This document shows, in pieces, positions 4,410 to 54,321 of a stretch of 64,000 bases of DNA (the first letter of the stretch is position 1; every line of letters begins with the position of its first letter). A program made the translations under genes and the position numbers. A model generated the notes under the pieces. The model saw only the letters and a list, made by a program, of their open reading frames with translations. It was not told the DNA's origin and searched no databases. This stretch comes from Girardia tigrina (Eukaryota), in assembly GCA_001938485.1 (NCBI GenBank), contig MQRK01254984.1, forward strand, positions 1 to 64,000, in the 5' to 3' direction.

Positions 4410-4777
4410 CCAATAAGAATGGAAAGTTTTAAAATAAAATAATTTTAATTAAAATTCGTATACGGGTGTTTTTGTTTTTTTGACATTTTTTTACGTTTTT
4501 ATTAACAGTAACTATAATTAATAATTGTAATTACAAAAAATATCCAAACGAATAAAATCCAAGAAAAATACACAGCATTTTATCTTATTCGTGTAAATTA
4601 CATTGTACTACATTGGCCATATTTAAATGGTTCAAGTCCTATTAAAAAGTTAATAGGTGTATTAATAAATGCAAACGACTTCAATATATTCATTATATTT
4701 TCATTAGTTAACAATATCGATTATTTTTAATAATAAAAATGTAAATCGAATTCAAAGCAGCACTAACAAATCGGTTT

Positions 4778-6421
4778 ATGTCGAAATTTCAAGCCTTAAC
4801 AACATACGAAGAAGGTCTAAAAACGCTCGTGGATCTGTGTGAACATTGTTTCGGTCCCAATGGAAGACCGGTATTCATTGAATCGAACGATGGAAAAATA
4901 AAACCGACGAAAAATTCTTTCGACATTTTCCAATATATCTATTCCCATTCGGAAAACCCTTTGGTGAAAGTGACAGTCAATTTCGCTCTGGAACAACACC
5001 GAGAACACGGCGACCACACGTTTTATATCGTTATTTTGGCACTGAATATCTACCGGAAGTTGAAACAAGAAAACATTTGTATGTCGATGGCGCGAGAGAA
5101 ACTGAAAGAAATCGAACATATCATCGAAAATCAAATCGGAAATCGTAACAGATTCCATCGAAATTTCGAAAATAATTTCGAAAATCTCGTTCAATTGTCA
5201 ATGAGTTTAATTCGACCGAAGCTATTCGGATATTCCCAATCGAAATTGGAGTCGTTTTGTCGATTTGTTGTGGCTGCGATTTTGCAGTCGATTCCCGATC
5301 CGAGTAACGTCAGTTTGTCGTCGTGGTTCATGCCGACCGTTCTTTCGTTTCCGATTATCGGAAACGATCCATTTAAGTATGGAGAGATTTTTGAGGGGAT
5401 TTTGTTTCCGATTAATCTGAAAAGTAAAGTCAAAAACTACCTCCAGCGGGTTATCGAGTTGAGAAGTTTCACGACTTATGAGTTGTTGTATAAGGAGAAA
5501 AAGAATCTCAACTCGATACTCATGATTTACGACAACTCGAAAATCTGTGAAAGTATTCACGAGCAAATGGAAATCAACAAGCAACATCGTTTGCCGAGTG
5601 TAAAGCAAATCATCGTTGATGTTTTCGAAGCCAATTTTATAGGGTTATTGGAAAAATCCAATGTCGGATTGATAATTGTAGAAAATCAAATGAATGGGAA
5701 TCTAAGATCGAAATTGTCGGATAGGAGTATATTTCTTTTAGATGGTGTTGATCGGAATTCAATAAATCGGGCAAGTAAAATTTTTAATGTGGAAATTGTG
5801 ACGTCTTTGAAAATCGAAGACACAGAATCTTTTGTGTTTCAAGTCGAAATTCCGAGCTTGAGAACCTTTCAAAGTAAACAGTACCTAGCGATTCCTAAAC
5901 CGGAAATTATCACGCTTATTTTCCATAAATTACTCGATTCTAATTCTAATCTTAATGAGGATTTATCAAATTTTTTATTTAAAAGTCTTAGTAAAGTAAT
6001 TTTTGACAATAATTCTGAAGGGTTGACGAGTCTTTGTCATGGAGCTGGTTGTACGGAATTTTTAATTGCCGGAGTAATATTAAGAACCGGAGAAAATGAT
6101 ATCGTTTCTTCTAATTTTTTGATGCCAACAGCAAACTATAATCACAGCATTATACAAACGGCAATATCAGATTCTTTTATTAAAATTTGGCAGTTAACGA
6201 AAGATCCTTGTAATGAACATAACATATGTAAAAGATCCGACGACTTGTTGACAATGTGTCAAAATAACTTTAATTGCGTTTGTAGTCATTTGAAACATGG
6301 TACGAACTCACGTAACGTCCCGTCAGATTTTACGCTTACAAAACTTGCTGCGATTAAAAACGCTTTAAGATTGGTAAATGTTTTACTTAGTACTGATTTA
6401 GTTATTTTAACACAACATTAA
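4778..6421 (+). CDS. MKKS: McKusick-Kaufman/Bardet-Biedl syndrome 6 chaperonin-like protein, single-exon 547-aa ORF
   Basis: Group II chaperonin-like N-terminus CFGPNGR and degenerate GDGTT (GDHTF). Matches recalled from human MKKS: AAILQSIP~RAFLLTIP, FQSKQY~FGSKHF, GAGCTE~GGGCTE, CVC~CGC, C-terminal KLAAIKNALRLVNVLL~KLSGLQVAVETANLIL. Confidence 0.85.
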   Translation: MSKFQALTTYEEGLKTLVDLCEHCFGPNGRPVFIESNDGKIKPTKNSFDIFQYIYSHSENPLVKVTVNFALEQHREHGDHTFYIVILALNIYRKLKQENICMSMAREKLKEIEHIIENQIGNRNRFHRNFENNFENLVQLSMSLIRPKLFGYSQSKLESFCRFVVAAILQSIPDPSNVSLSSWFMPTVLSFPIIGNDPFKYGEIFEGILFPINLKSKVKNYLQRVIELRSFTTYELLYKEKKNLNSILMIYDNSKICESIHEQMEINKQHRLPSVKQIIVDVFEANFIGLLEKSNVGLIIVENQMNGNLRSKLSDRSIFLLDGVDRNSINRASKIFNVEIVTSLKIEDTESFVFQVEIPSLRTFQSKQYLAIPKPEIITLIFHKLLDSNSNLNEDLSNFLFKSLSKVIFDNNSEGLTSLCHGAGCTEFLIAGVILRTGENDIVSSNFLMPTANYNHSIIQTAISDSFIKIWQLTKDPCNEHNICKRSDDLLTMCQNNFNCVCSHLKHGTNSRNVPSDFTLTKLAAIKNALRLVNVLLSTDLVILTQH

Positions 6422-7099
6422 AATACATAGATCCACTGTAATTAAAATGTACCAGCCAAATGACAAGCTTTGCAAATTAATAAAAAAAAACAAAATATTT
6501 ATTTATTTTCTAATGACAAATAAATCTTTAATAAGTGTAGGAAAACCAGTCATTTATTCTTTGGGCTTTATAAAAGTATCCGTATTACTATAGACCATTG
6601 TTAAATGACTCTCAGTGAAAAATATTATCAATGGGTACTCGTAAGATTATATAATAAAATTTTCCATCAAAATTTTGATGAAAAATGAAAATGGAATATG
6701 TTCTAGAAGACAACGAAGTAGCCGTCATCAGTCGAAAAGAAACTTTTGCTTAGATGGTGAAAAAGAAAAGAAACTTTCAGAAGTTAATAGACTCGCTCAT
6801 GTTTATGACACGCATACAAAATTTGCATTCATGAAATTCAAATATTTTCTATCTAGATTTATTCAATAATTTAAGGGTTAGATATCCTTGTAAGTCACAA
6901 GATGAAATAATTTAATTCATGATTCGATGTCTTAGTCTAAAAGAATTTCACTCCATATAAATGTCTTTATTTAGACGGATAGGGAATTCACCCTTTGTTA
7001 GTTATTAATATCGATTTTTGTTTCTAATTAATTTAAAAATTTTACTCGTCCTTCCGAATCCCAAAATACTTTAATCCTTTAAAATTGATTGGAATAAAA

Positions 7100-8883
7100 C
7101 ATAATTTTGTAAATTCTAAAACAGAGATTAAGAGAGAACTATATTAAGACATGCCGATTAATCTCATTCTGATATTTACATCACCAGCATCTATTATAGT
7201 CGAACTTACTCTCTCATTCAATCACCTAATCCCAGTCCACCGTCAAATAACTATATCAAATATTATTTATAACTCTTTCATACTCCTTCATTATAATTAG
7301 ATTTTATTTACAACTCTGCATTTATCCCTTGTGGAACTACTACCCTTCATTTCTATTTACAAAACCACGATCGAATCTAGGACATAAACAAATAGACTAA
7401 TAACTTCTTGATTTACACACATTTAACCCTTTTCAACTCATCAACTTGACGGGTTCCGTCGTCAACTTTACACTGATTACTATAGCATAATTATGAACAA
7501 TCAAAACGATTAAATTAAGGTAATCAATAGGGAATTAGATTAACTGAAATAATTAAAGGGACATCACTGCACAAATCTAAAACTTCTCATATCGATATTA
7601 TACTATACTTATATTATTATATTATATTTACAGTACTATATTTATTATCATTATTCATTGTCATTATGCAAATCACTCTGATCCTCTATATACACTATTT
7701 ACAAAGAATGTTTCTCTCATATTGTAGTCCTCCGCATAACTAGCACGTCGCTCTCACCTAACTTATCTCTATCTCTCTTCATTGCAACTCCCACATAGTC
7801 AATATTTAATCCAAGACCCTCACTCCTATAGAACTCTTCCTCATTATAGATTCAAACGAAAGCCGACGATAATTTCCTACAGATTAAAATACATAAGTTA
7901 TCAATTAAATAAGAAGCAAGTAATTTCAAGAAAATTGTACTAAATTTATTAACATCATGAAATAAGAATAAATGATGATGCATATAGGATACAATTAGGA
8001 TAATATAATATTAGTTAAAGGGCATGTTGACTGTGAAATAGTAACTAAATATCGGCATTATTTACCTTGTAAAATAAATTGATCCTTTTAAAACAAATTT
8101 CTTCCGAAATAAAATAAAATTGAGACAAATATAATAACGTTGATCGATATTGTAATAAGATTGGTGTCACTACCGTCAAAATGAAATTGTGCTTTTAAAT
8201 TTATTCGAATAAATTTTGTGTATGTGATTTTGTGTGTGATTTGCCGTCAGGATGTGCAAGGTTGTGATGTGATTGGTTTGTTACGATCGAGAGTATTACG
8301 ACAGACACCGCCCGTCAGACCCCTCCATCCACTACACCACCTCGTGAGCACGGAATTATTGTGAAATTTGGGAATAGTCAAACTCGACTAATCCCGTTAC
8401 GTTTAAGTGTCCCGTGCATCAACAAAGTGACGAGGTCCGGAGGGATCTATGGACGCGTCTTGAGGGTGATCGTAGACCCTGAAGTGGCCGGAGGATGTTG
8501 TTGGGACCTCTTGGAGAACCTTTTGAAATCCTTTAAAAAAAATTTAATTAATTAAAAACTTTGACTTATAAAATAAATTACCCGCAATCATTTGACTCCA
8601 GTAATTACCCAGGATGTCGATTGCAAACGTTTGCAATCATTTCCTCCCTGTTTTCCCCTCACATCCTGTCCCGGAATAATTACCGTTTGTTTCGATTGCC
8701 GGCGAGCGATAATTATCAATCCGTAATTGACCGGCATCTGGCAGGGCAGTAACATCTAAAATAATAATTAATCAAAAAATTAATCTGAAACAATTAAATT
8801 ACTTGCAATCAACATTGCGATGACGGAAATCGTTTTTCCCCTCATCCTGCCTTTGCAAATAACATCCTGTAGGGTATAAATAG
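7100..8883 (-). other. Spliced, apparently non-coding repeat unit (copy A), possibly LTR/UTR of a large retroelement
   Basis: GC-richer exon-like blocks separated by GT..AG introns at 8756-8802 and 8531-8581; hairpin 8370-8395; purine-rich downstream tail; shares motifs with 12360-13170. Confidence 0.45.
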
Positions 8884-9819
8884 NNNNNNNNNNNNNNNNN
8901 NNNNNNNNNNNNNNNNNNNNNNNNNNNNNNNNNNNNNNNNNNNNNNNNNNNNNNNNNNNNNNNNNNNNNNNNNNAATTTTACGACAACCAATATTTGACC
9001 GATTTACTTCGCCAAATTATTTCGGTTCGACACAATTTTGAAAGCAAAACAAATTAATTTGAGCTGCTACCTTCGTTATTATTTTGTGAACTCAGTTGAT
9101 ATTATTATTTCAGGAACCCGAACGAAGTAACACCTATCCTTTTATTATCTTTTATTTTATTTATTTATTTTTTTTATTATTATTATTAAATGTTGATTAC
9201 GATCGTTTTGTTCCACGATTCGATGAATTGCAATATATATACTTAATCTCTTCTTCTTTTAATTATTATAGTAATATTTCATTATTATTATTGATATTTC
9301 ATGTAACTATGAAGAGAGTTAAAGGGACGACCCGCCGTATTGATAGTCGTTATGAGGCGGGATTATTAGACCAGGGTCGTCTGAGTTGTTGTTGAGCTTG
9401 AATACAGTTTTGAGAGATTGAGAGAGAGAAAGAAAAGCATAGAAGAGAGAGAAGTGAATTGTTATTTAATGAAAGAATATTGAGAGTCAGGGTTAAGCTA
9501 TCATAGAAGCGCAGAGTTACAGTGACTGATAAGGTGTTAAGTGTTGACGTGAGAGCTTGGCTTATCGTTTTATTTTCTTATCTCGATTCATGTGAGTGAG
9601 CGAGAGACAGCGTATTCGAGCTAGTGTAATTTTGTTTACAAAAAAAAATTTTTTTAGTGATCGTCATTTTTACATATTTTGACTTTTAATCATTCAATCA
9701 ATAATTACATTTAATTAGTTTTGTCGATTAAAATTTGTGTGTTTGTTTATTTATTGAAATAAAGGTGCCCAAAAAAAGGAAAAAAAGAAAAAACGAGGCT
9801 TCATATTTGGAATAATACA

Positions 9820-11159
9820 ATGGATTATGAGATCATTTACTCAAAATATAAATCAAAATACTGCCTTGAAGCCACCTTTAGAAGATAATTTCAATTATTA
9901 AACTGAAGGACAGCCGTTAATAAAAATAAAGTGATATGTTGTAATCCTGAAGCTCCTATTATGACCAATTTAACACAGAACAACATTTCAAATAATAACA
10001 ATAGTAATCAACCAAGTCATTCAAAGAAAGCCAAATTCTTTCGAATTGTTCGTCTTTTAGTAATCAGACTAAATTTGATCCAATCAAGCAACAAGAGACA
10101 ACTATTGCCACATTGAATTTTGCACCTATTGACATCCCGGCATTAGATTCTCATAAATTAAAAAAATTGCATTATCAACAAGAAGCAGAAAAAAAGTACA
10201 AGTATCATCTGAAGATTTGAAAAACAAAAGTACTTTTCGATTAGATGACAGTTTATCAATGAGTACTGATTCGAGCGCTGAGGAAAAGATTAAAGATGTT
10301 GAAGTTGATAGAAAGTCAAAGACGCATAAGTTTAAACAAAGCCTGCCAAAGTCTTGTAGCGTTTGTCTTCGAAATTGTAATGACTCTAACAGTAAGCAAA
10401 AAAATTATATTGATTTTGATGAAGATTGCTCTATAAAATCGAATGACAGTGGAATAGAATCATCTAAATATAAAAATTATGTGAGACAAATTAAAAGTAA
10501 TCCTGAAAATTCATTCCGAAACAATGAAAGTCAGTCTATTAAAAAGTTAAATCAGAATCACGCTTGTCGCAGTAGTTTTGACAGAAGAGAAAAGGTGCAC
10601 TCAGGTATTGGGAAATGTAACGCATCGAGTGCTAATGCAGGAGTAAATTTTTTAAATAATAAAAAATATAACTCATGTGAATTTTCTATGATTGGGGATC
10701 TCAATGCTGGAAAAGATTTTTCAATCTTGTCTGAAAGAATAAAACAATTTTCTAATTTAATTTATTTTTCGTAATAATGCGGATGATTTGTTCAATGAAC
10801 CTTCAAGATCTAATAGTGAACATTGGCTTTGTTCTGCATCAAATGTATCAGCGAATAATATGGAACCTATAGAAATATTTGATGAAGAAAATCAATTGAT
10901 TTCACCAAATTATACTAATAAGCATTCTGAAAATATTGTGAATCAAATTGATTTAAATTATCAAATGTTAAATTGTGCTTCAAAGATAAATTTATGCAAT
11001 CCATCTGATCAAACATTAGGAAATTACTTTAAACAACCTTGCATTACATCGTTTAATTCNNNNNNNNNNNNNNNNNNNNNNNNNNNNNNNNNNNNNNNNN
11101 NNNNNNNNNNNNNNNNNNNNNNNNNNNNNGATATTGTACCTTTACATAATGCCAAATAA
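9820..11159 (+). pseudogene. Interrupted Ser/Asn/Lys-rich coding-like region, unidentified
   Basis: Collinear ORF fragments 9931-10116, 10217-10774 and 10788-11159 with protein-like composition, broken by stops/frameshifts and an N gap. Confidence 0.4.
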
Positions 11160-11689
11160 TCTTATTTCATGTCACCATATAATTTGCGTGATTTGCCTTA
11201 ACCTTTTAGTTCAGACAAATAACTCGCGACCGGGGTACGATTTTGTCGAATAATTTCTAGAATTTGTAATCCACATTTCTATTTTCTATTTGGAAACCGG
11301 TTTTCTGGAGATTAGGACATAGATATCCCTTTAGCAATTAAATACTAGTTTGAATTATTTCTATTAATCAAAACACTAAATTCATTATCCAACGAATTGA
11401 TAACTAGTTATTATTAATTATTATAGATATTATTATTACTAAATAGTTAGAATTTAGATAGTTTAATTATGAATTTAGAATCCAAACAACGGGTTAAATT
11501 TTACTTTTATGGAGTTCTTCGTATAAATCAATTTAAAAATTTTTGCTAATTCGTCACGCTACTATTACATTGAAATAAACCTTCTAAATGAAGTCAAAAG
11601 AGAGGGAAAGAATCAGCTGTAAGTTTTCTGAGATTAATAAAATAATAATTAAATGAGATAATAAAAGATATTTGAAACCAAGTAATAGT

Positions 11690-13400
11690 AAGGAAAGGGT
11701 GACTTTTCGAGGAAGAACCCTGAGTTATATTTGGTAACTTAACGAAATAAATTTTAAAAAATTTTGAATTGCAGAGTCACAAATGATACATGTCGTCGAA
11801 TATAAAATATCTCGTTGTAATATAATTAAATGGAAATAAGTAATGAATGTAAATTCTGAACATTAATTGAATGGTAAATGAGAAGTGACGAGAACCCTTT
11901 TGGAGATGGTGCAGGTTGACCATAGAATGCATAAAGGCACGTGGTTCGATCGTCGCTTATTTTCTTGAGGCTCTTCTCGTTCACGACATGAAATGGCAGC
12001 CCAAAGTTTAGAATAGTGTTAGTAAAGGAAAAAAGCATCGACCCCTCAGGAAGCTGAGACCACCGGTCGGGCAATACTCGCTACCGGTTTGAACCCGAAG
12101 GCGCTCCGAAGCACACACAACTTGTTGATGTGCGGGGAGGAGACGCGTCTGTTCCCAAAAGAATAAGAAGACAGAGAGCAATCACTGAGGGGAGTATGAA
12201 GAGATATAAGATAAGTGTTAGTTGCCGTTTAACTCAGGAAAGCGGATGGGGGCTCAGGGCGAACGAAGATGTCTCGAAACGGAGGGAACACGACAGGTTG
12301 CACACCCAGTCCGACGTTCTCTGGAGGTCTGCGTGCATGTTTGTTATATGCATGTTGTTTATTCGACAGGATGGAAAGGAGGGGGGAAACATGATTATGT
12401 TATCCTGCCTGTCGTCTTACTTAATCAATCGTTTTCTAGAACTATCGTTATCTCAGTGTGTCCTTTCTGTCCCGGCGACCATTGGTTTTGTCGAAATTAT
12501 TTAAGGACAGGATGGTAGGGGAGTGATTAGACAGTTGCAATTCGCATGTTTGCAATCCTCTTATCGGCATAAGTATCTATCTGTGAGTAGTCGTTCTGCA
12601 GCTGTTAGTTCGAAACTATTTGCAATGTTTACTTGTCGTGAATTCACGAATGCAGCATCTGTAATTATTGCAGATTGTAGTCATCCTTCCTATCGAAATG
12701 TACATGATGTCGGCGCGTGCACTACAGACACCCGCGATGTTTATCGCTGCTGCCGGGTTTGGTAGGTCAAATTATTCCTGGACGATTTTGACAATTGCTT
12801 ATGCAGGATATCGCTGTTGTTCACTCGGGACCTACCTCGGAGATTAGCAGACGCTGGATTTCTATGATTCACTCTGAATCATTCTGGTAAATTTTAATTA
12901 ATTATAGTTTGTTAATTAACTTTTTCTGTTTTTTTAGGGTTTTCAGAAGGATCCTCCGCCGGTTGGACTCTATTGAGAAAGACAAGGGGCAAAGTCCGAA
13001 GAGTGCTTCTCCTGCCCTTCGTTTCGGCACGTTCGGAGCCTATTTAACACTAACGGGGATAGTCGAGTTTGATTATCCCCACAAACACTCAATAAGGTTT
13101 TCGTGCGTGCGGGACGTTTGGTATGGGTTTTCGGCGAATTTATAATCATATTCGTGTCGTAACAATATATCATGCAAAGGTCAGCCTCATTTTGTCGACA
13201 ATAGTCCGAGAGTTGTGAATCCAGATATAGATCCAACTCTTAAGTGTGTAGATAATCCGTTGGTTGCCCAAGGCTTTAATGTTATGACTTATCTTGATAA
13301 TTATAACTTCGGGCCCGAGAGAAGACACAAGAGGAGATATCGCCAATTCGGCAGAATAATATTATCCGAAACGAATCTGATGGACCTGTAGGACTCATAC
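11690..13400 (+). other. Spliced, structured, apparently non-coding repeat unit (copy B)
   Basis: Hairpin cluster 12045-12160, GACAGGATG motifs, GT..AG intron 12887-12937, hairpin 13055-13080 homologous to 8370-8395. Confidence 0.45.
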
Positions 13401-45632: not shown

Positions 45633-45919
45633 GTAAAATTACCTATATATATCTATAAATATTTGCGTTTTTCGATTAATCTAATAACCTTAGCAACCAA
45701 GATAATTCAATATCAAATATCGGTATCGCGTCAATTTAGCTCGGCGACAATACAATTTTTTTATTATTTTAATATTGAAATTAATGTATATGCAAATATA
45801 TGTGCTCTGCCGAATTTGTGAAATTGCCGCATTCACCACGGACGCAATTTATTAGAAATAATTTTTAATTGAGTTATAAAAAATCAATATTAAAAATTCT
45901 GCATTTTATGTGAAAATTT

Positions 45920-48443
45920 ATCAATTTAATATGAAAAAATATCGATTTAATATGAATAAATATCGATTTAATATGAATAAATATCGATTTAATATGAAAA
46001 AATATCGATTTAATATGAAAAAAATATCAAATTAATATGAAAAAATATCGATTTAATATGAAAAAATATCGATTTAATATGAAAAAATATCGATTTAATA
46101 TGAAAAAATATCGATTTAATATGAAAAAATATCAATTTAATATGAAAAAATATCGATTTATTATTAAAAAATATCGATTTATTATGAAAAAATATCGATT
46201 TAATATGAAAAAATATCAAATTAATATGAAAAAATATCGATTTAATATGAAAAAATATCGATTTAATATGAAAAATATCAATTTAATATGAAAAAATATC
46301 GATTTATTATTAAAAAATATCGATTTATTATGAAAAAATATCGATTTAATATGAAAAAATATCAAATTAATATGAAAAAATATCGATTTAATATGAAAAA
46401 ATATCGATTTAATATGAAAAAATATCAATTTAATATGAAAAAATATCGATTTAATATGAAAAAATATCGATTTATTATGAAATATCAATTTAATATGAAA
46501 AAATATCAATTTAATATGAAAAAATATCTATTTATTATTAAAAAATATCGATTTAATATGAATAAATATCGATTTAATATGAATAAATATCGATTTAATA
46601 TGAAAAAATATCGATTTAATATGAAAAAATATCGATTTATTATTAAAAAATATCGATTTAATATGAAAAAATATCGATTTAATATGAAAAAAATATCAAA
46701 TTAATATGAAAAAATATCGATTTAATATGAAAAAATATCGATTTAATATGAAAAAATATCGATTTANNNNNNNNNNNNNNNNNNNNNNNNNNNNNNNNNN
46801 NNNNNNNNNNNNNNNNTATCGATTTAATATGAAAAAATATCGATTTATTATGAAATATCAATTTAATATGAAAAAATATCAATTTAATATGAAAAAATAT
46901 CTATTTATTATTAAAAAATATCGATTTAATATGAAAAAATATCAATTTAATATGAAAAAATATCGATTTAATATGAAAAAATATCAATTTAATATGAAAA
47001 AATATCAATTTAATATGAAAAAATATCGATTTATTATTAAAAAATATCGATTTATTATGAAAAAATATCGATTTAATATGAAAAAATATCAAATTAATAT
47101 GAAAAAATATCGATTTAATATGAAAAAATATCGATTTAATATGAAAAAATATCAAATTAATATGAAAAAATATCGATTTAATATGAAAAAATATCGATTT
47201 AATATGAAAAATATCAATTTAATATGAAAAAATATCGATTTATTATTAAAAAATATCGATTTATTATGAAAAAATATCGATTTAATATGAAAAAATATCG
47301 ATTTAATATGAAAAAATATCAAATTAATATGAAAAAATATCGATTTAATATGAAAAAATATCGATTTATTATGAAATATCAATTTAATATGAAAAAATAT
47401 CAATTTAATATGAAAAAATATCTATTTATTATTAAAAAATATCGATTTAATATGAAAAAATATCAATTTAATATGAAAAAATATCGATTTAATATGAAAA
47501 AATATCAATTTAATATGAAAAAATATCAATTTAATATGAAAAAATATCGATTTATTATTAAAAAATATCGATTTATTATGAAAAAATATCGATTTAATAT
47601 GAAAAAGTATCATATTAATATGAAAAAATATCAATTTAATATGAAAAAATATCGATTTAATATGAAAAAATATCGATTTATTATGAAATATCAATTTAAT
47701 ATGAAAAAATATCGATTTAATATGAAAAATATCAATTTAATATGAAAAAATATCGATTTATTATTAAAAAATATCGATTTATTATGAAAAAATATCGATT
47801 TAATATGAAAAAATATCAAATTAATATGAAAAAATATCGATTTAATATGAAAAAATATCGATTTAATATGAAAAATATCAATTTAATATGAAAAAATATC
47901 GATTTATTATTAAAAAATATCGATTTATTATGAAAAAATATCGATTTAATATGAAAAAATATCAAATTAATATGAAAAAATATCAATTTAATATGAAAAA
48001 ATATCGATTTAATATGAAAAAATATCAATTTAATATGAAAAAATATCTATTTATTATTAAAAAATATCGATTTAATATGAAAAAAATATCAATTTAATAT
48101 GAAAAAATATCGATTTAATATGAAAAAATATCAATTTAATATGAAAAAATATCGATTTAATATGAAAAAATATCAATTTAATATGAAAAAATATCAATTT
48201 AATATGAAAANNNNNNNNNNNNNNNNNNNNNNNNNNNNNNNNNNNNNNNNNNNNNNNNNNTATGAAAAAATATCAATTTAATATGAAAAAATATCGATTT
48301 AATATGAAAAAATATCAATTTAATATGAAAAAATATCAATTTAATATGAAAAAATATCAATTTAATATGAAAAAATATCTATTTATTATTAAAAAATATC
48401 GATTTAATATGAAAAAATATCAATTTAATATGAAAAAATATCG
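45920..48443. repeat. 21-bp satellite (TAATATGAAAAAATATCGATT)n with higher-order structure, in tomosyn intron 2
   Basis: Directly visible; two N gaps, so true length is unknown. Confidence 0.97.
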
Positions 48444-48505
48444 ACACAACATTTAAACATGCAAACACTACACAAAAACATCAAATATTCCTCACAATAG
48501 TTATT

Positions 48506-52491: not shown

Positions 52492-52684
52492 GTTTCGATT
52501 ATCAAATTTCTGTTTGAATTTTACTTTTAAAATATTTTAAAAAACATTTATAAAATTATTAAATTAATAATTTTAAAAAAGAATAAATTATTTTTAAATA
52601 CTAATTAATTATCGTTAAATAATAAATATACAATAAATCAATTTCTATCGGATAATTTATATTAATAGAGGATTTTTCGATTGT

Positions 52685-53375
52685 TTATGAATTAATTTGT
52701 GATTATTTATGAATTAATTTGTGAATATTTATTAATTAATTTGTGATTATTTACGAATTAATTTGTGAATATTTATTAATTAATTTGTGATTATTTATGA
52801 ATTAATTTGTGATTATTTATGAATTAATTTGTGAATATTTATTAATTAATTTTTGGTTATTTATGAATTAATTTGTGAATATTTATTAATTAATTTGTGA
52901 TTATTTATCAATTAATTTGTGATTATTTATCAATTAATTTGTGATTATTTATTAATTAATTTGTGATTATTTATCAATTAATTTGTGATTATTTATTAAT
53001 TAATTTGTGATTATTTATGAATTAATTTGTGATTATTTATGAATTAATTTGTGATTATTTATGAATTAATTTGTGATTATTTTTAATTAATTTCTGAATA
53101 TTTATTAATTAATTTGTGATTATTTATGTATTAATTTGTGAATATTTATTAATTTATTAGTAAATATTTATTAATTAATTTGTAATTATTTATGAATTAA
53201 TTTGTGAATATTTATTAATTAATTTGTGATTATTTAATTATTAATTTGTGATTATTTATGTATTAATTTGTGAATATTTATTAATTTATTTGTAAATATT
53301 TATTAATTAATTTGTGATTATTTATGAATTAATTTATGATTATTTAATTATTAATTTGTGATTATTTTTTGATAT
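52685..53375. repeat. 22-bp minisatellite (GAATTAATTTGTGATTATTTAT)n
   Basis: Directly visible tandem array. Confidence 0.95.
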
Positions 53376-54321
53376 TAATTATTGATTTATTGGAAAAGTA
53401 GAGATTTTGTTAGTGAGGAAAACCAATTTAGTTTTAATCGTCACTTCCGTACTAGAATTACTGATAAATTAGCATTAATTATTAGAAAATATTGAATGTA
53501 TAAATTGAAAATTCCTAAATTAATATTATTTTTTGTGTGAAGTAAAAAGAATTCATAACTCTTTATGTTTTCTAAACGACATTTAAATTTTAAATTTAAA
53601 TTTAATTTTGGTAATTATGGAATTTGTCTTATCGACATTGATGACGATTATTATTATTGATGCTATTAATTTTTTTTAATCATTGACATTGCAGATTATC
53701 TATTTTATCCAGGACATTTTAAATTTGACTTTTTTTAAATTTATTCTTTAGCAAAATTTAAATAATATTTCTATTTACTGGAATATATTTATTTGAACAA
53801 TAATTTTTAATTAAAATTTTTGAGTTTTATTCTGAAATATTAAAAGTTTCATTTTAGATTTTATTCAATTTTATATTTTTTATTTATTTAATTTTTAAAT
53901 TATTTTTTAAACAATTATTAGAATATCCTATTTAATTACAGTATTTTTACTAATCAATTAGATAAATCAAGATCAATATAGATCTTACTTTTCAATATGT
54001 ATGACTCAAGTTAACCGCATGAGACTACTTGTTGTGATTGTTAAAATCTTTTTTCAAAAATCCTTACAATTATTTAATTTTTGAAATAATTAATTTGTAA
54101 AAACATGAAAATAAAAAAATATATATTTTAGACATATAAAATATAAAAGTCCAATTCATTTAAAAGATTAATCAATTACATTTTTTTCCAAATAATTTGT
54201 CATTATTTTTAATTTCTCAATAGTAATTCTTTAATTATTTTTTAGTTTTCATCACTAGAAAAAATTGAACTTAAAATTTTATGGAAATTAAAACTGTCTT
54301 GCAAAAATGATATCAAAATTA

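What the first reader, a model, noticed from the sequence alone, without database searches (positions are those of the whole stretch)
8370..13080. Two diverged head-to-head spliced non-coding units share a 51-nt intron and a covarying GAGUUU-loop hairpin
Copy A (minus, 8883 to ~8290) and copy B (plus, ~12360-13170) are poorly alignable overall. Both keep GGACAGGATG..AGGGG and TTGCAA..GTTTGCAATC motifs, a 51-nt GT-AG intron (8531-8581; 12887-12937) followed by G.TTTCA.AAGG, and then TAAC plus a 10-bp hairpin: GGGATTAGTC-GAGTTT-GACTATTCCC vs GGGGATAGTC-GAGTTT-GATTATCCCC. There is an A-U/G-C compensatory pair and a G-C/G-U change. I found no shared ORF. Inference: a spliced structured RNA family under selection, either the LTR/leader of giant planarian-type retroelements or an undescribed lncRNA family with a protein-binding stem-loop.
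Basis: partly seen in the sequence, partly recalled or inferred. Interest (0 to 1): 0.72.

Follow-up and report, generated by a model that had tools for sequence, protein, structure and literature searches.

The report
Antisense structured RNA in retrotransposon ends
The two units are the ends of two related jumping genes, one inserted inside the other, and many diverged families of these elements keep a small predicted intron and a predicted RNA fold on their back strand, which points to an undescribed RNA that likely regulates the element itself.

Summary
The motifs, 51-nt GT-AG segments and hairpins are real, but this is not a head-to-head gene pair. Copy A is a 4.0-kb solo LTR with a 4-bp target duplication, inserted backwards into copy B, another LTR. 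Polypurine-tract and primer-site junctions and pol genes show a Burro-like Ty3/Gypsy parent. Intron and hairpin lie antisense to its genomic RNA, at the outer edge of U3.

The hairpin (1,225 matches, control 54) caps a ~150-nt rod. Across 36 diverged LTR clusters its stem covaries (166/180 Watson-Crick cells, shuffles 122), the fold favours the antisense strand, and 27 of 33 clusters have an antisense mini-intron (sense: 2). There is no codon signal.

Best reading: a spliced, non-coding antisense RNA from the LTR's divergent promoter, with a protein-binding stem-loop, likely regulating its own element. No RNA data covered the introns, so splicing and function are unproven. Spliced antisense RNAs are known (HeT-A, BLV, HTLV); I found no conserved fold like this in Rfam or the papers searched. 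Scan notes on other genomes describe gene-bearing planarian solo LTRs and antisense hairpins, but no sequence look-alike.

The parts
8279..12295 (+). Copy A: solo LTR (TG...CA), retroelement sense is the + strand
   Evidence: Sharp shared ends in other copies; polarity from PPT and PBS junctions
8275..8278 (+). Left target-site duplication of A (GGTT)
12296..12299 (+). Right target-site duplication of A (GGTT)
12300..13164 (-). Copy B: U3 part of an older LTR, retroelement sense is the - strand, 5' end at 13164
6781..8278 (-). Continuation of LTR B on the far side of the A insertion; truncated at 6781
   Evidence: L032-L036 are contiguous across the junction; other copies extend about 750 bp further
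8370..8395 (-). A apical hairpin, loop GAGUUU, one U-U mismatch in this copy
8303..8460 (-). A predicted rod: long imperfect lower stem, A/C-rich 14x14 internal loop, apical hairpin
   Evidence: -75.4 kcal/mol, z -5.6 on this strand against -56.7, z -2.7 on the other; covariation
8531..8581 (-). A predicted antisense intron, 51 nt
   Evidence: kept across families
8756..8802 (-). A second predicted antisense intron, 47 nt
8600..8870 (.). U3 promoter-proximal motifs (CAGGATG repeats; TTGCAA palindrome at 8621-8636), likely transcription-factor sites; some CAGGATG also read as splice acceptors
   Evidence: CAGGATG 33 antisense and 9 sense in 15.4 kb of 30 clusters; ETS and C/EBP labels are recalled
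8875..8883 (+). Sense TATA box of LTR A, marking the likely U3/R boundary
   Evidence: TATA at a like position in L173, L176, L179, L225
9758..9763 (+). AATAAA, likely sense poly(A) signal
   Evidence: contigs of 3 of 3 RNA-like runs (one study) stop at 9766, beside an A-run where the tool warns reads seem cut
10157..11159 (+). Broken open frames in the LTR interior; other A-type LTRs carry host-gene fragments in this slot
   Evidence: no Pfam family above cut-off for the matching frames of L110 and L107
12225..12255 (+). Conserved U5 hairpin with loop 5-mer AACUC, followed by a PBS-like repeat inside the LTR
12864..12882 (+). Small hairpin directly before the antisense donor of B
   Evidence: seen in several families
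12887..12937 (+). B predicted antisense intron, 51 nt
13010..13127 (+). B predicted rod
13055..13080 (+). B apical hairpin with one G-U pair

Best explanation
A and B are nested LTRs of Burro-like Ty3/Gypsy retroelements whose U3 region carries, on the strand opposite to the genomic RNA, predicted mini-introns and a conserved predicted RNA fold, and these likely belong to a spliced non-coding antisense RNA that regulates its own element. Steps: (1) shown: LTR identity, nesting and polarity. (2) Shown as sequence pattern: antisense-only GT-AG mini-introns, a covarying stem and no codon signal. (3) Inferred: the U3 promoter fires in both directions; the backward transcript starts near the sense TATA box, loses one or two ~50-nt introns and gives an RNA of about 450-500 nt whose last exon folds into a long duplex capped by a hairpin. 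(4) Follows from retrotransposon biology: the introns are never lost because only the opposite strand is reverse transcribed. (5) Inferred: a protein reads the nearly invariant apex (AGUC-GAGYYN-GACU) and stabilises the RNA or holds it in the nucleus, where it tunes the element's own promoter or genomic RNA, most likely damping it. Probability about 0.95 for step 1, 0.8 that a selected spliced antisense RNA exists, 0.45 for the regulatory role.
For: LTR and polarity: 12 of 13 loci holding both ends have a 4-bp duplication, the exception ends in a PBS; 7 of the first 100 of 196 left ends abut a shared PPT and 3 of the first 100 of 632 right ends abut a PBS; 52 PPT and 21 PBS junctions genome-wide, controls 0; protease, RT, RNase H, integrase and a mononegavirus-type fusion domain lie upstream in the PPT direction. 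Hairpin: 1,225 matches against 54 for the reversed control; of 30 LTR starts picked by the PPT alone, 24 have it (17 by regex, 7 loop variants by eye), 4 have an assembly gap there, 1 is too short, 1 lacks it. Covariation: 36 clusters, stem pairs 5-9 Watson-Crick in 166 of 180 cells, shuffle mean 121.8, maximum 138 of 5,000; lower stem with two-sided changes at 13 of 47 and 18 of 48 pairs. Strand: lower z antisense in 26 of 31 representatives; consensus energy -21.4 vs -11.5 and -9.8 vs -1.4; with pairs chosen from Watson-Crick-only folds of both strands, G-U against A-C is 69:27 and 59:31. Introns: 27 of 33 clusters antisense, 2 of 33 sense, background 82 of 712; 25 against 1 in the PPT-picked set. 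Non-coding: substitutions by codon position 0.187/0.171/0.157, 8 of 44 indels in frame, pN/pS 0.76-0.96 in six frames, while the element's real ORF shows third-position excess.
Against: No transcript was seen, and the intron scorer is my own heuristic. The rod also folds on the sense strand (z -2.7 in the window copy; 23 of 35 clusters with 20 or more spanning pairs against 28 antisense) and partly as minus-strand DNA (21 of 30). By columns the G-U excess is only 19:8 and 14:6 (p 0.05 and 0.12), and rows are related. RNAalifold did not recover the long stem in the B group; it came from averaged single-sequence folds. The count of pairs with two-sided change was not significant in group A (170 of 500 shuffles). 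Six short-tailed clusters lack the enclosing stem; in the L261/L263 type a separate long hairpin lies upstream instead. No conserved antisense poly(A) signal or 3' end was found. The direction of regulation is a guess: in BLV, antisense transcription supports replication (PMC11575825, abstract).
Confidence: 0.55

Rival explanations
1. The antisense RNA is a small-RNA precursor: Drosha or Dicer cuts the 30-40-bp imperfect duplex into small RNAs complementary to the element's own U3, and placing it on the back strand keeps the genomic RNA from being cut.
For: Duplex sequence drifts freely while pairing is kept; short-tailed families keep a pre-miRNA-sized hairpin beside the capped one. Foamy-virus LTR miRNAs and RTL1 antisense miRNAs are recalled parallels.
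Against: No seed-like conserved sequence in the duplex; the conserved letters sit in the apex and linker; no Rfam match.
Confidence: 0.18
2. The fold works in reverse transcription or export, on the sense RNA or minus-strand DNA next to the PPT (for example loop-loop contact with the U5 hairpin), and the intron-like segments are by-products of AT-rich promoter DNA.
For: Fixed position 45-121 nt from the LTR edge; folds on the sense strand and as DNA too; U5 has a hairpin with the same 5-mer.
Against: G-U bias and energies favour antisense RNA; GT-AG ends at 43-58-nt spacing are kept on one strand only; U3 and U5 loop variants do not covary in 20 LTRs.
Confidence: 0.14
3. Everything is DNA-level enhancer grammar: palindromic and ETS-, C/EBP-, Forkhead- or Myb-like sites in U3.
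For: The upstream motifs lie just before the sense TATA box and are strongly enriched; the stem core is sequence-invariant. Factor names are recalled.
Against: It probably explains the upstream motifs, but not three pair types at one stem position, wobble bias, a 35-bp enclosing stem or one-strand splice sites.
Confidence: 0.06
4. The unit is a small spliced protein gene carried in the LTR, or the 5' leader of an antisense ORF beyond the PPT.
For: One frame stays open across the junction in several B subfamilies; the PPT reads as a pyrimidine tract plus AG on the antisense strand; scan notes report gene-bearing planarian LTRs.
Against: No codon periodicity, frameshifting differences between families, last-exon lengths in all three phases; the AG at the PPT is lost in L254 and L263 and no antisense frame is free of stops across families.
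Confidence: 0.05
5. Two host lncRNA genes arranged head to head.
For: Only the orientation in the window.
Against: Both are high-copy LTRs, one nested in the other.
Confidence: 0.02

Closest known systems
Burro / GYPSM1 giant Ty3/Gypsy elements of Dugesiidae (PMC6431247, section 7 read whole; Grohme 2018 not held)
   Same: Multi-kb LTRs, Ty3/Gypsy pol order, mononegavirus-type fusion domain upstream of the protease, accessory ORFs
   Different: No BIR, ankyrin, MATH or BCL2 domain found in the fragments scanned; a long transmembrane ORF follows the integrase; the section read says nothing of antisense introns or an LTR RNA fold
HeT-A and TART spliced antisense RNAs of Drosophila (PMC2615633, passages)
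   Same: Non-coding antisense transcripts with several introns from the element's 3' promoter region; role of the splicing called elusive
   Different: Non-LTR elements; variable, probably cryptic splice sites; no conserved fold in the passages seen
Retroviral LTR antisense transcripts: BLV AS1/AS2, HTLV hbz/APH, HIV-1 Ast, MLV U3 antisense (PMC10186651 passages; PMC11575825 abstract)
   Same: Bidirectional LTR; antisense starts in U3 (MLV, HIV-1); non-coding regulatory RNAs (BLV)
   Different: Those RNAs run on into the provirus or the host; here introns and the conserved domain lie wholly inside U3, so each solo LTR carries the whole unit
CAB box of scaRNAs (ugAG; Drosophila C/D type cgaGUUAnUg; PMC4041459 passages)
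   Same: The apex CGAGUU(U/A) in a terminal loop matches the first six or seven letters
   Different: The nUg end is not matched; no conserved H, ACA, C or D boxes; resemblance only
Iron-responsive element (PMC2896125 passages)
   Same: Six-base loop whose first and fifth bases can pair
   Different: Loop is not CAGWGH and there is no bulged C five pairs below the loop

Membership tests
Solo LTR of a Ty3/Gypsy element | TG...CA ends with 4-5-bp target duplication | tested here: met
   Window A has GGTT on both sides; 12 of 13 loci with both ends
Solo LTR of a Ty3/Gypsy element | Same ends found beside a PPT and a tRNA-complementary PBS | tested here: met
   the tRNA-Pro label is recalled, ARAGORN called no tRNA in L272, whose longer copy includes a T-arm-like stretch
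Solo LTR of a Ty3/Gypsy element | PR-RT-RH-IN order in the parent | tested here: met
   Pieced from decayed copies: PR then RT in L263, RH then integrase zinc finger in L270, PR then integrase core in L256
Burro/GYPSM1 | Mononegavirus-like fusion (env) domain directly upstream of protease | tested here: met
   PF24664 then PR then RT in L263; PF24664 also in L255
Burro/GYPSM1 | Gag at the N-terminus of one ~5,000-aa ORF, upstream of env | tested here: inconclusive
   CCHC knuckles 6-7 kb after the PBS in L381 and L389; no single locus shows gag and env in one frame
Burro/GYPSM1 | BIR, ankyrin, MATH, BCL2 accessory domains | tested here: inconclusive
   None in the fragments scanned (one search took 12 of 21 frames); loci are gapped and decayed
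Burro/GYPSM1 | Sequence identity to Burro-1 to -4 and total length over 30 kb | not testable with these tools
   No Burro reference held; fragmented assembly
Spliced antisense retroelement RNA (HeT-A/BLV type) | Consensus splice sites on the antisense strand only | tested here: met
Spliced antisense retroelement RNA (HeT-A/BLV type) | Non-coding | tested here: met
Spliced antisense retroelement RNA (HeT-A/BLV type) | Antisense transcript and junction seen in RNA | tested here: inconclusive
   Three small unstranded contig sets do not cover the introns
H/ACA or C/D scaRNA | Conserved H and ACA (or C and D) boxes at fixed spacing | tested here: not met
   ANANNA in 19 of 36 5' flanks and 14 of 36 3' flanks of A-rich linkers, no fixed position; ACA, C and D boxes checked by eye only; no Rfam hit
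Iron-responsive element | CAGWGH loop and bulged C | tested here: not met
   Loop GAGYYN; position 6 is paired, A-U in 33 of 36 (definition)
pri-miRNA | Discrete 22-nt products with 2-nt overhangs | not testable with these tools
   No small-RNA run was offered

The most novel reading that the evidence does not exclude
A whole clade of env-bearing planarian retroelements encodes, entirely inside U3, its own spliced antisense RNA gene with a structure-conserved domain whose apical loop recruits a host nuclear-body protein (CAB-box-like) or pairs with the U5 hairpin of the genomic RNA. It would be a self-regulating RNA module kept by selection on the element, and more than a thousand solo LTRs would seed it, with an outward-facing spliced promoter, across the host genome.
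Probability: 0.3. Interest if true: 0.8.

Novelty: new variant of a known kind. Interest (0 to 1): 0.6.

Why it matters
Antisense transcripts of retroelements are usually hard to tell from promoter leak, and the role of their splicing was called elusive (PMC2615633). Here dozens of LTR lineages whose exons no longer align keep mini-introns and a covarying fold on that strand, which is the mark of selection on the antisense RNA itself. It gives a defined ~150-nt domain and an invariant loop that can be probed, pulled down and knocked down in a stem-cell and piRNA model animal.

Tried and rejected
RNA: no RNA holder was listed for the stretch. Contigs of three RNA-like runs of one study covered only LTR interior pieces of A and the U5/PBS region plus one 38-nt weak match in L173. 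These blanks say nothing about splicing. Intron-less copies: 0 matches for the A and B junction patterns, as expected for antisense introns but not proof. Rfam: three weak chance hits in the window region, none in 10 other loci. Viral contigs 0; 7 metagenome hits lacked the outer stem and were dropped. An integrase SH3 fragment in L174 turned out to end at another repeat and was not used. A striking run of synonymous-looking changes between A and L165 did not hold up over the group. U3/U5 loop covariation in 20 LTRs: 19 fit antisense-to-sense pairing only because wobble is allowed, one does not, so inconclusive. The long post-integrase ORF has no Pfam or PDB match and one unnamed homologue. 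The Atlas look-up did not run. No covariance model was built and R-scape is not available; shuffles do not correct for relatedness. Rows dropped: one search left out 6 clusters (near-duplicates, truncated copies, one metagenome hit) and any with N; one search required a nearby LTR end and 7 of 9 pairs, which favours pairing; one search skipped 3 short clusters.
Full report
Observation. The two 51-nt GT-AG segments, the hairpins and the upstream motifs are at the stated places. A loop-anchored pattern hits the window only there (2 matches, chance mean 0.22). The window's A stem has one mismatch that most A copies lack.

Both units are repeats, and they are nested. Searches of the own genome gave 1,204 and 1,351 first-look candidates; the 40 scored were 84-98% (A) and 76-91% (B) identical. 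A begins at 8279 and ends at 12295 with GGTT on both sides. Five other B loci join window 7173-8262 directly to 12296-13164. So A inserted backwards into B, and the head-to-head look is an accident of nesting. B is cut at 6781. Of 17 loci examined, 13 held both ends and 12 of these had a 4-bp duplication; the other ends in a primer site.

Polarity. Most flanks are unique, but 7 of the first 100 of 196 left ends share a flank that reads as a polypurine tract on the other strand, and 3 of the first 100 of 632 right ends share a primer-binding site. Direct patterns found 52 PPT and 21 PBS junctions, controls 0. The tRNA-Pro label is recalled; ARAGORN called nothing in L272. Internal regions give protease, RT, RNase H, integrase and a mononegavirus-type fusion domain, all reading towards the PPT. 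In L263 the order is fusion, protease, RT, a long transmembrane ORF, PPT, LTR. Fusion upstream of protease is the Burro layout (PMC6431247, section 7). I call the parent Burro-like, not Burro: accessory domains were not found and gag was not seen in frame with env. That the host is a planarian is inferred from this and from base composition. For A the element's sense is the + strand, with a TATA box at 8875 and AATAAA at 9758. The intron and the GAGUUU hairpin are therefore antisense and sit in the first 600 nt of U3.

How widespread. The hairpin pattern has 1,225 matches against 54 for the control; other last-loop letters add 889 against 288. Among 30 LTR starts chosen by the PPT only, 17 matched a strict hairpin pattern, 7 more had loop variants by eye, 4 had an assembly gap there, 1 was too short and 1 lacked it; some are alleles of each other. 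In 169 sites forming 36 clusters, the four pairs under the loop are almost invariant, while pairs 5-9 switch among G-C, A-U and U-A and stay Watson-Crick in 166 of 180 cells (shuffle mean 121.8, maximum 138). The loop is GAG-Y-Y-N in 35 of 36.

A larger fold. Flanks on both sides of the hairpin pair into a stem of about 35 bp, separated from the apex by an A/C-rich internal loop. The z-score is lower on the antisense strand in 26 of 31 representatives. RNAalifold gives -21.4 against -11.5 kcal/mol for 17 A-like sequences and -9.8 against -1.4 for 22 B-like ones, though it found the long stem only in the first group. Named structures are paired in 88.7% and 86.1% of cells, with 37 and 32 two-sided cells (0 of 500 shuffles each); pair counts were weaker (170 and 11 of 500). 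With pairs taken from Watson-Crick-only folds of both strands, G-U outnumbers A-C 69:27 and 59:31, but by columns only 19:8 and 14:6. Against this, the sense strand also folds, minus-strand DNA keeps the stem in 21 of 30, and six short-tailed clusters lack the enclosing stem.

Introns. A simple scorer of my own called an antisense 43-58-nt intron within 350 nt upstream of the loop in 27 of 33 clusters and a sense one in 2; background was 82 of 712. In 750-nt stretches of 32 representatives it made 49 antisense calls and 3 sense, 21 of the 49 being further upstream introns. High-scoring calls cluster in the first 530 nt of eight whole LTRs. No intron-less junction exists in the assembly for A or B, which fits introns that reverse transcription never sees spliced. 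RNA-like contigs did not cover them.

Not coding. Scan notes on gene-bearing planarian LTRs prompted this test. Substitutions by codon position were 0.187, 0.171, 0.157 over 24 pairs and 8 of 44 indels kept frame; pN/pS was 0.76-0.96 in six frames; last-exon lengths fall in all phases. The element's real ORF showed third-position excess with the same method, and no antisense frame beyond the PPT is free of stops across 12 loci.

Mechanism. The simplest account of one-strand splice sites plus one-strand wobble pairs is a Pol II antisense RNA from the divergent side of the U3 promoter, spliced once or twice, whose last exon forms a duplex scaffold with a sequence-specific apex. Selection must have acted while the elements were active, so the RNA served the element. 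I commit to a protein-bound, nuclear, self-regulating RNA (0.45 for that role), ahead of a small-RNA precursor (0.18) and a role in reverse transcription (0.14). Two leads on the partner are untested: the apex resembles the CAB box (PMC4041459, passages) though H/ACA boxes are not conserved, and its 5-mer is complementary to a conserved U5 loop, though loop variants do not covary in 20 LTRs.

What is known. Bidirectional LTRs and antisense starts in U3 are established for MLV, HIV-1, HTLV and BLV (PMC10186651, passages; PMC11575825, abstract). Spliced non-coding antisense RNAs are known for HeT-A and TART (PMC2615633, passages); plant and fly LTR antisense promoters are reviewed in PMC7264820 (passages). 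Burro is expressed and piRNA-controlled (PMC8532177, passages). Full-text searches (listings only unless named above) showed no title or abstract start on a conserved antisense fold in planarian LTRs; one search returned none. Rfam has no match. Grohme 2018 was not held. The scan's notes hold no sequence look-alike.

Verdict. Real, correctly suspected to be retroelement LTR, but nested, antisense and larger than described. A new variant of a known kind; interest 0.6, limited by the lack of RNA evidence.

Noticed in passing
L222:3011-4057, L223, L224, L225; window 9820-11160: A-type LTRs carry different cargo in the interior slot: NatA auxiliary subunit (PF12569) fragments in L222-L224 with a cyclophilin-like piece on the other strand (label by eye), and an LRR-like stretch in L225 (by eye). 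The window's broken frames may be such cargo.
   Followed up: partly
window 12025-12295: The U5 end is conserved at about 70-88% across families, with a 10-base palindrome at 12141-12150 (dimerisation-site-like, recalled), a small hairpin and a PBS-like repeat 40-50 nt inside the LTR end.
   Followed up: partly
L174, L180, L241, L257, L273-L301, just inside the PPT: A small hairpin directly 5' of the PPT is kept in nearly all loci; on the antisense strand the PPT reads as a pyrimidine tract plus AG.
   Followed up: partly
L210/L372, L213, L374: Mosaic LTRs: A-type R region joined to a different U3, suggesting module swapping between families.
   Followed up: no
L272:560-630: An LTR end followed by a longer copy of a tRNA 3' part than the usual 18 nt, as if reverse transcription ran past the normal stop.
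   Followed up: no
L255:6973-9270, L267:6005-7963: A long ORF with transmembrane-like segments follows the integrase; no Pfam or PDB match, one unnamed homologue.
   Followed up: partly
L283, L287, L289, L290: Assembly gaps fall right on the hairpin in 4 of 30 PPT-anchored LTRs.
   Followed up: no
window 4745-6421: Intronless 558-aa chaperonin-family ORF (PF00118) 360 bp left of the truncated B.
   Followed up: no
window 45903-48444 and 52679-53387: Tandem arrays of 21 nt (122 copies) and 22 nt (32 copies).
   Followed up: no
L173; L397: LTRs of this clade nested in or next to other LTRs of the clade, as in the window; possible insertion preference, not counted.
   Followed up: no
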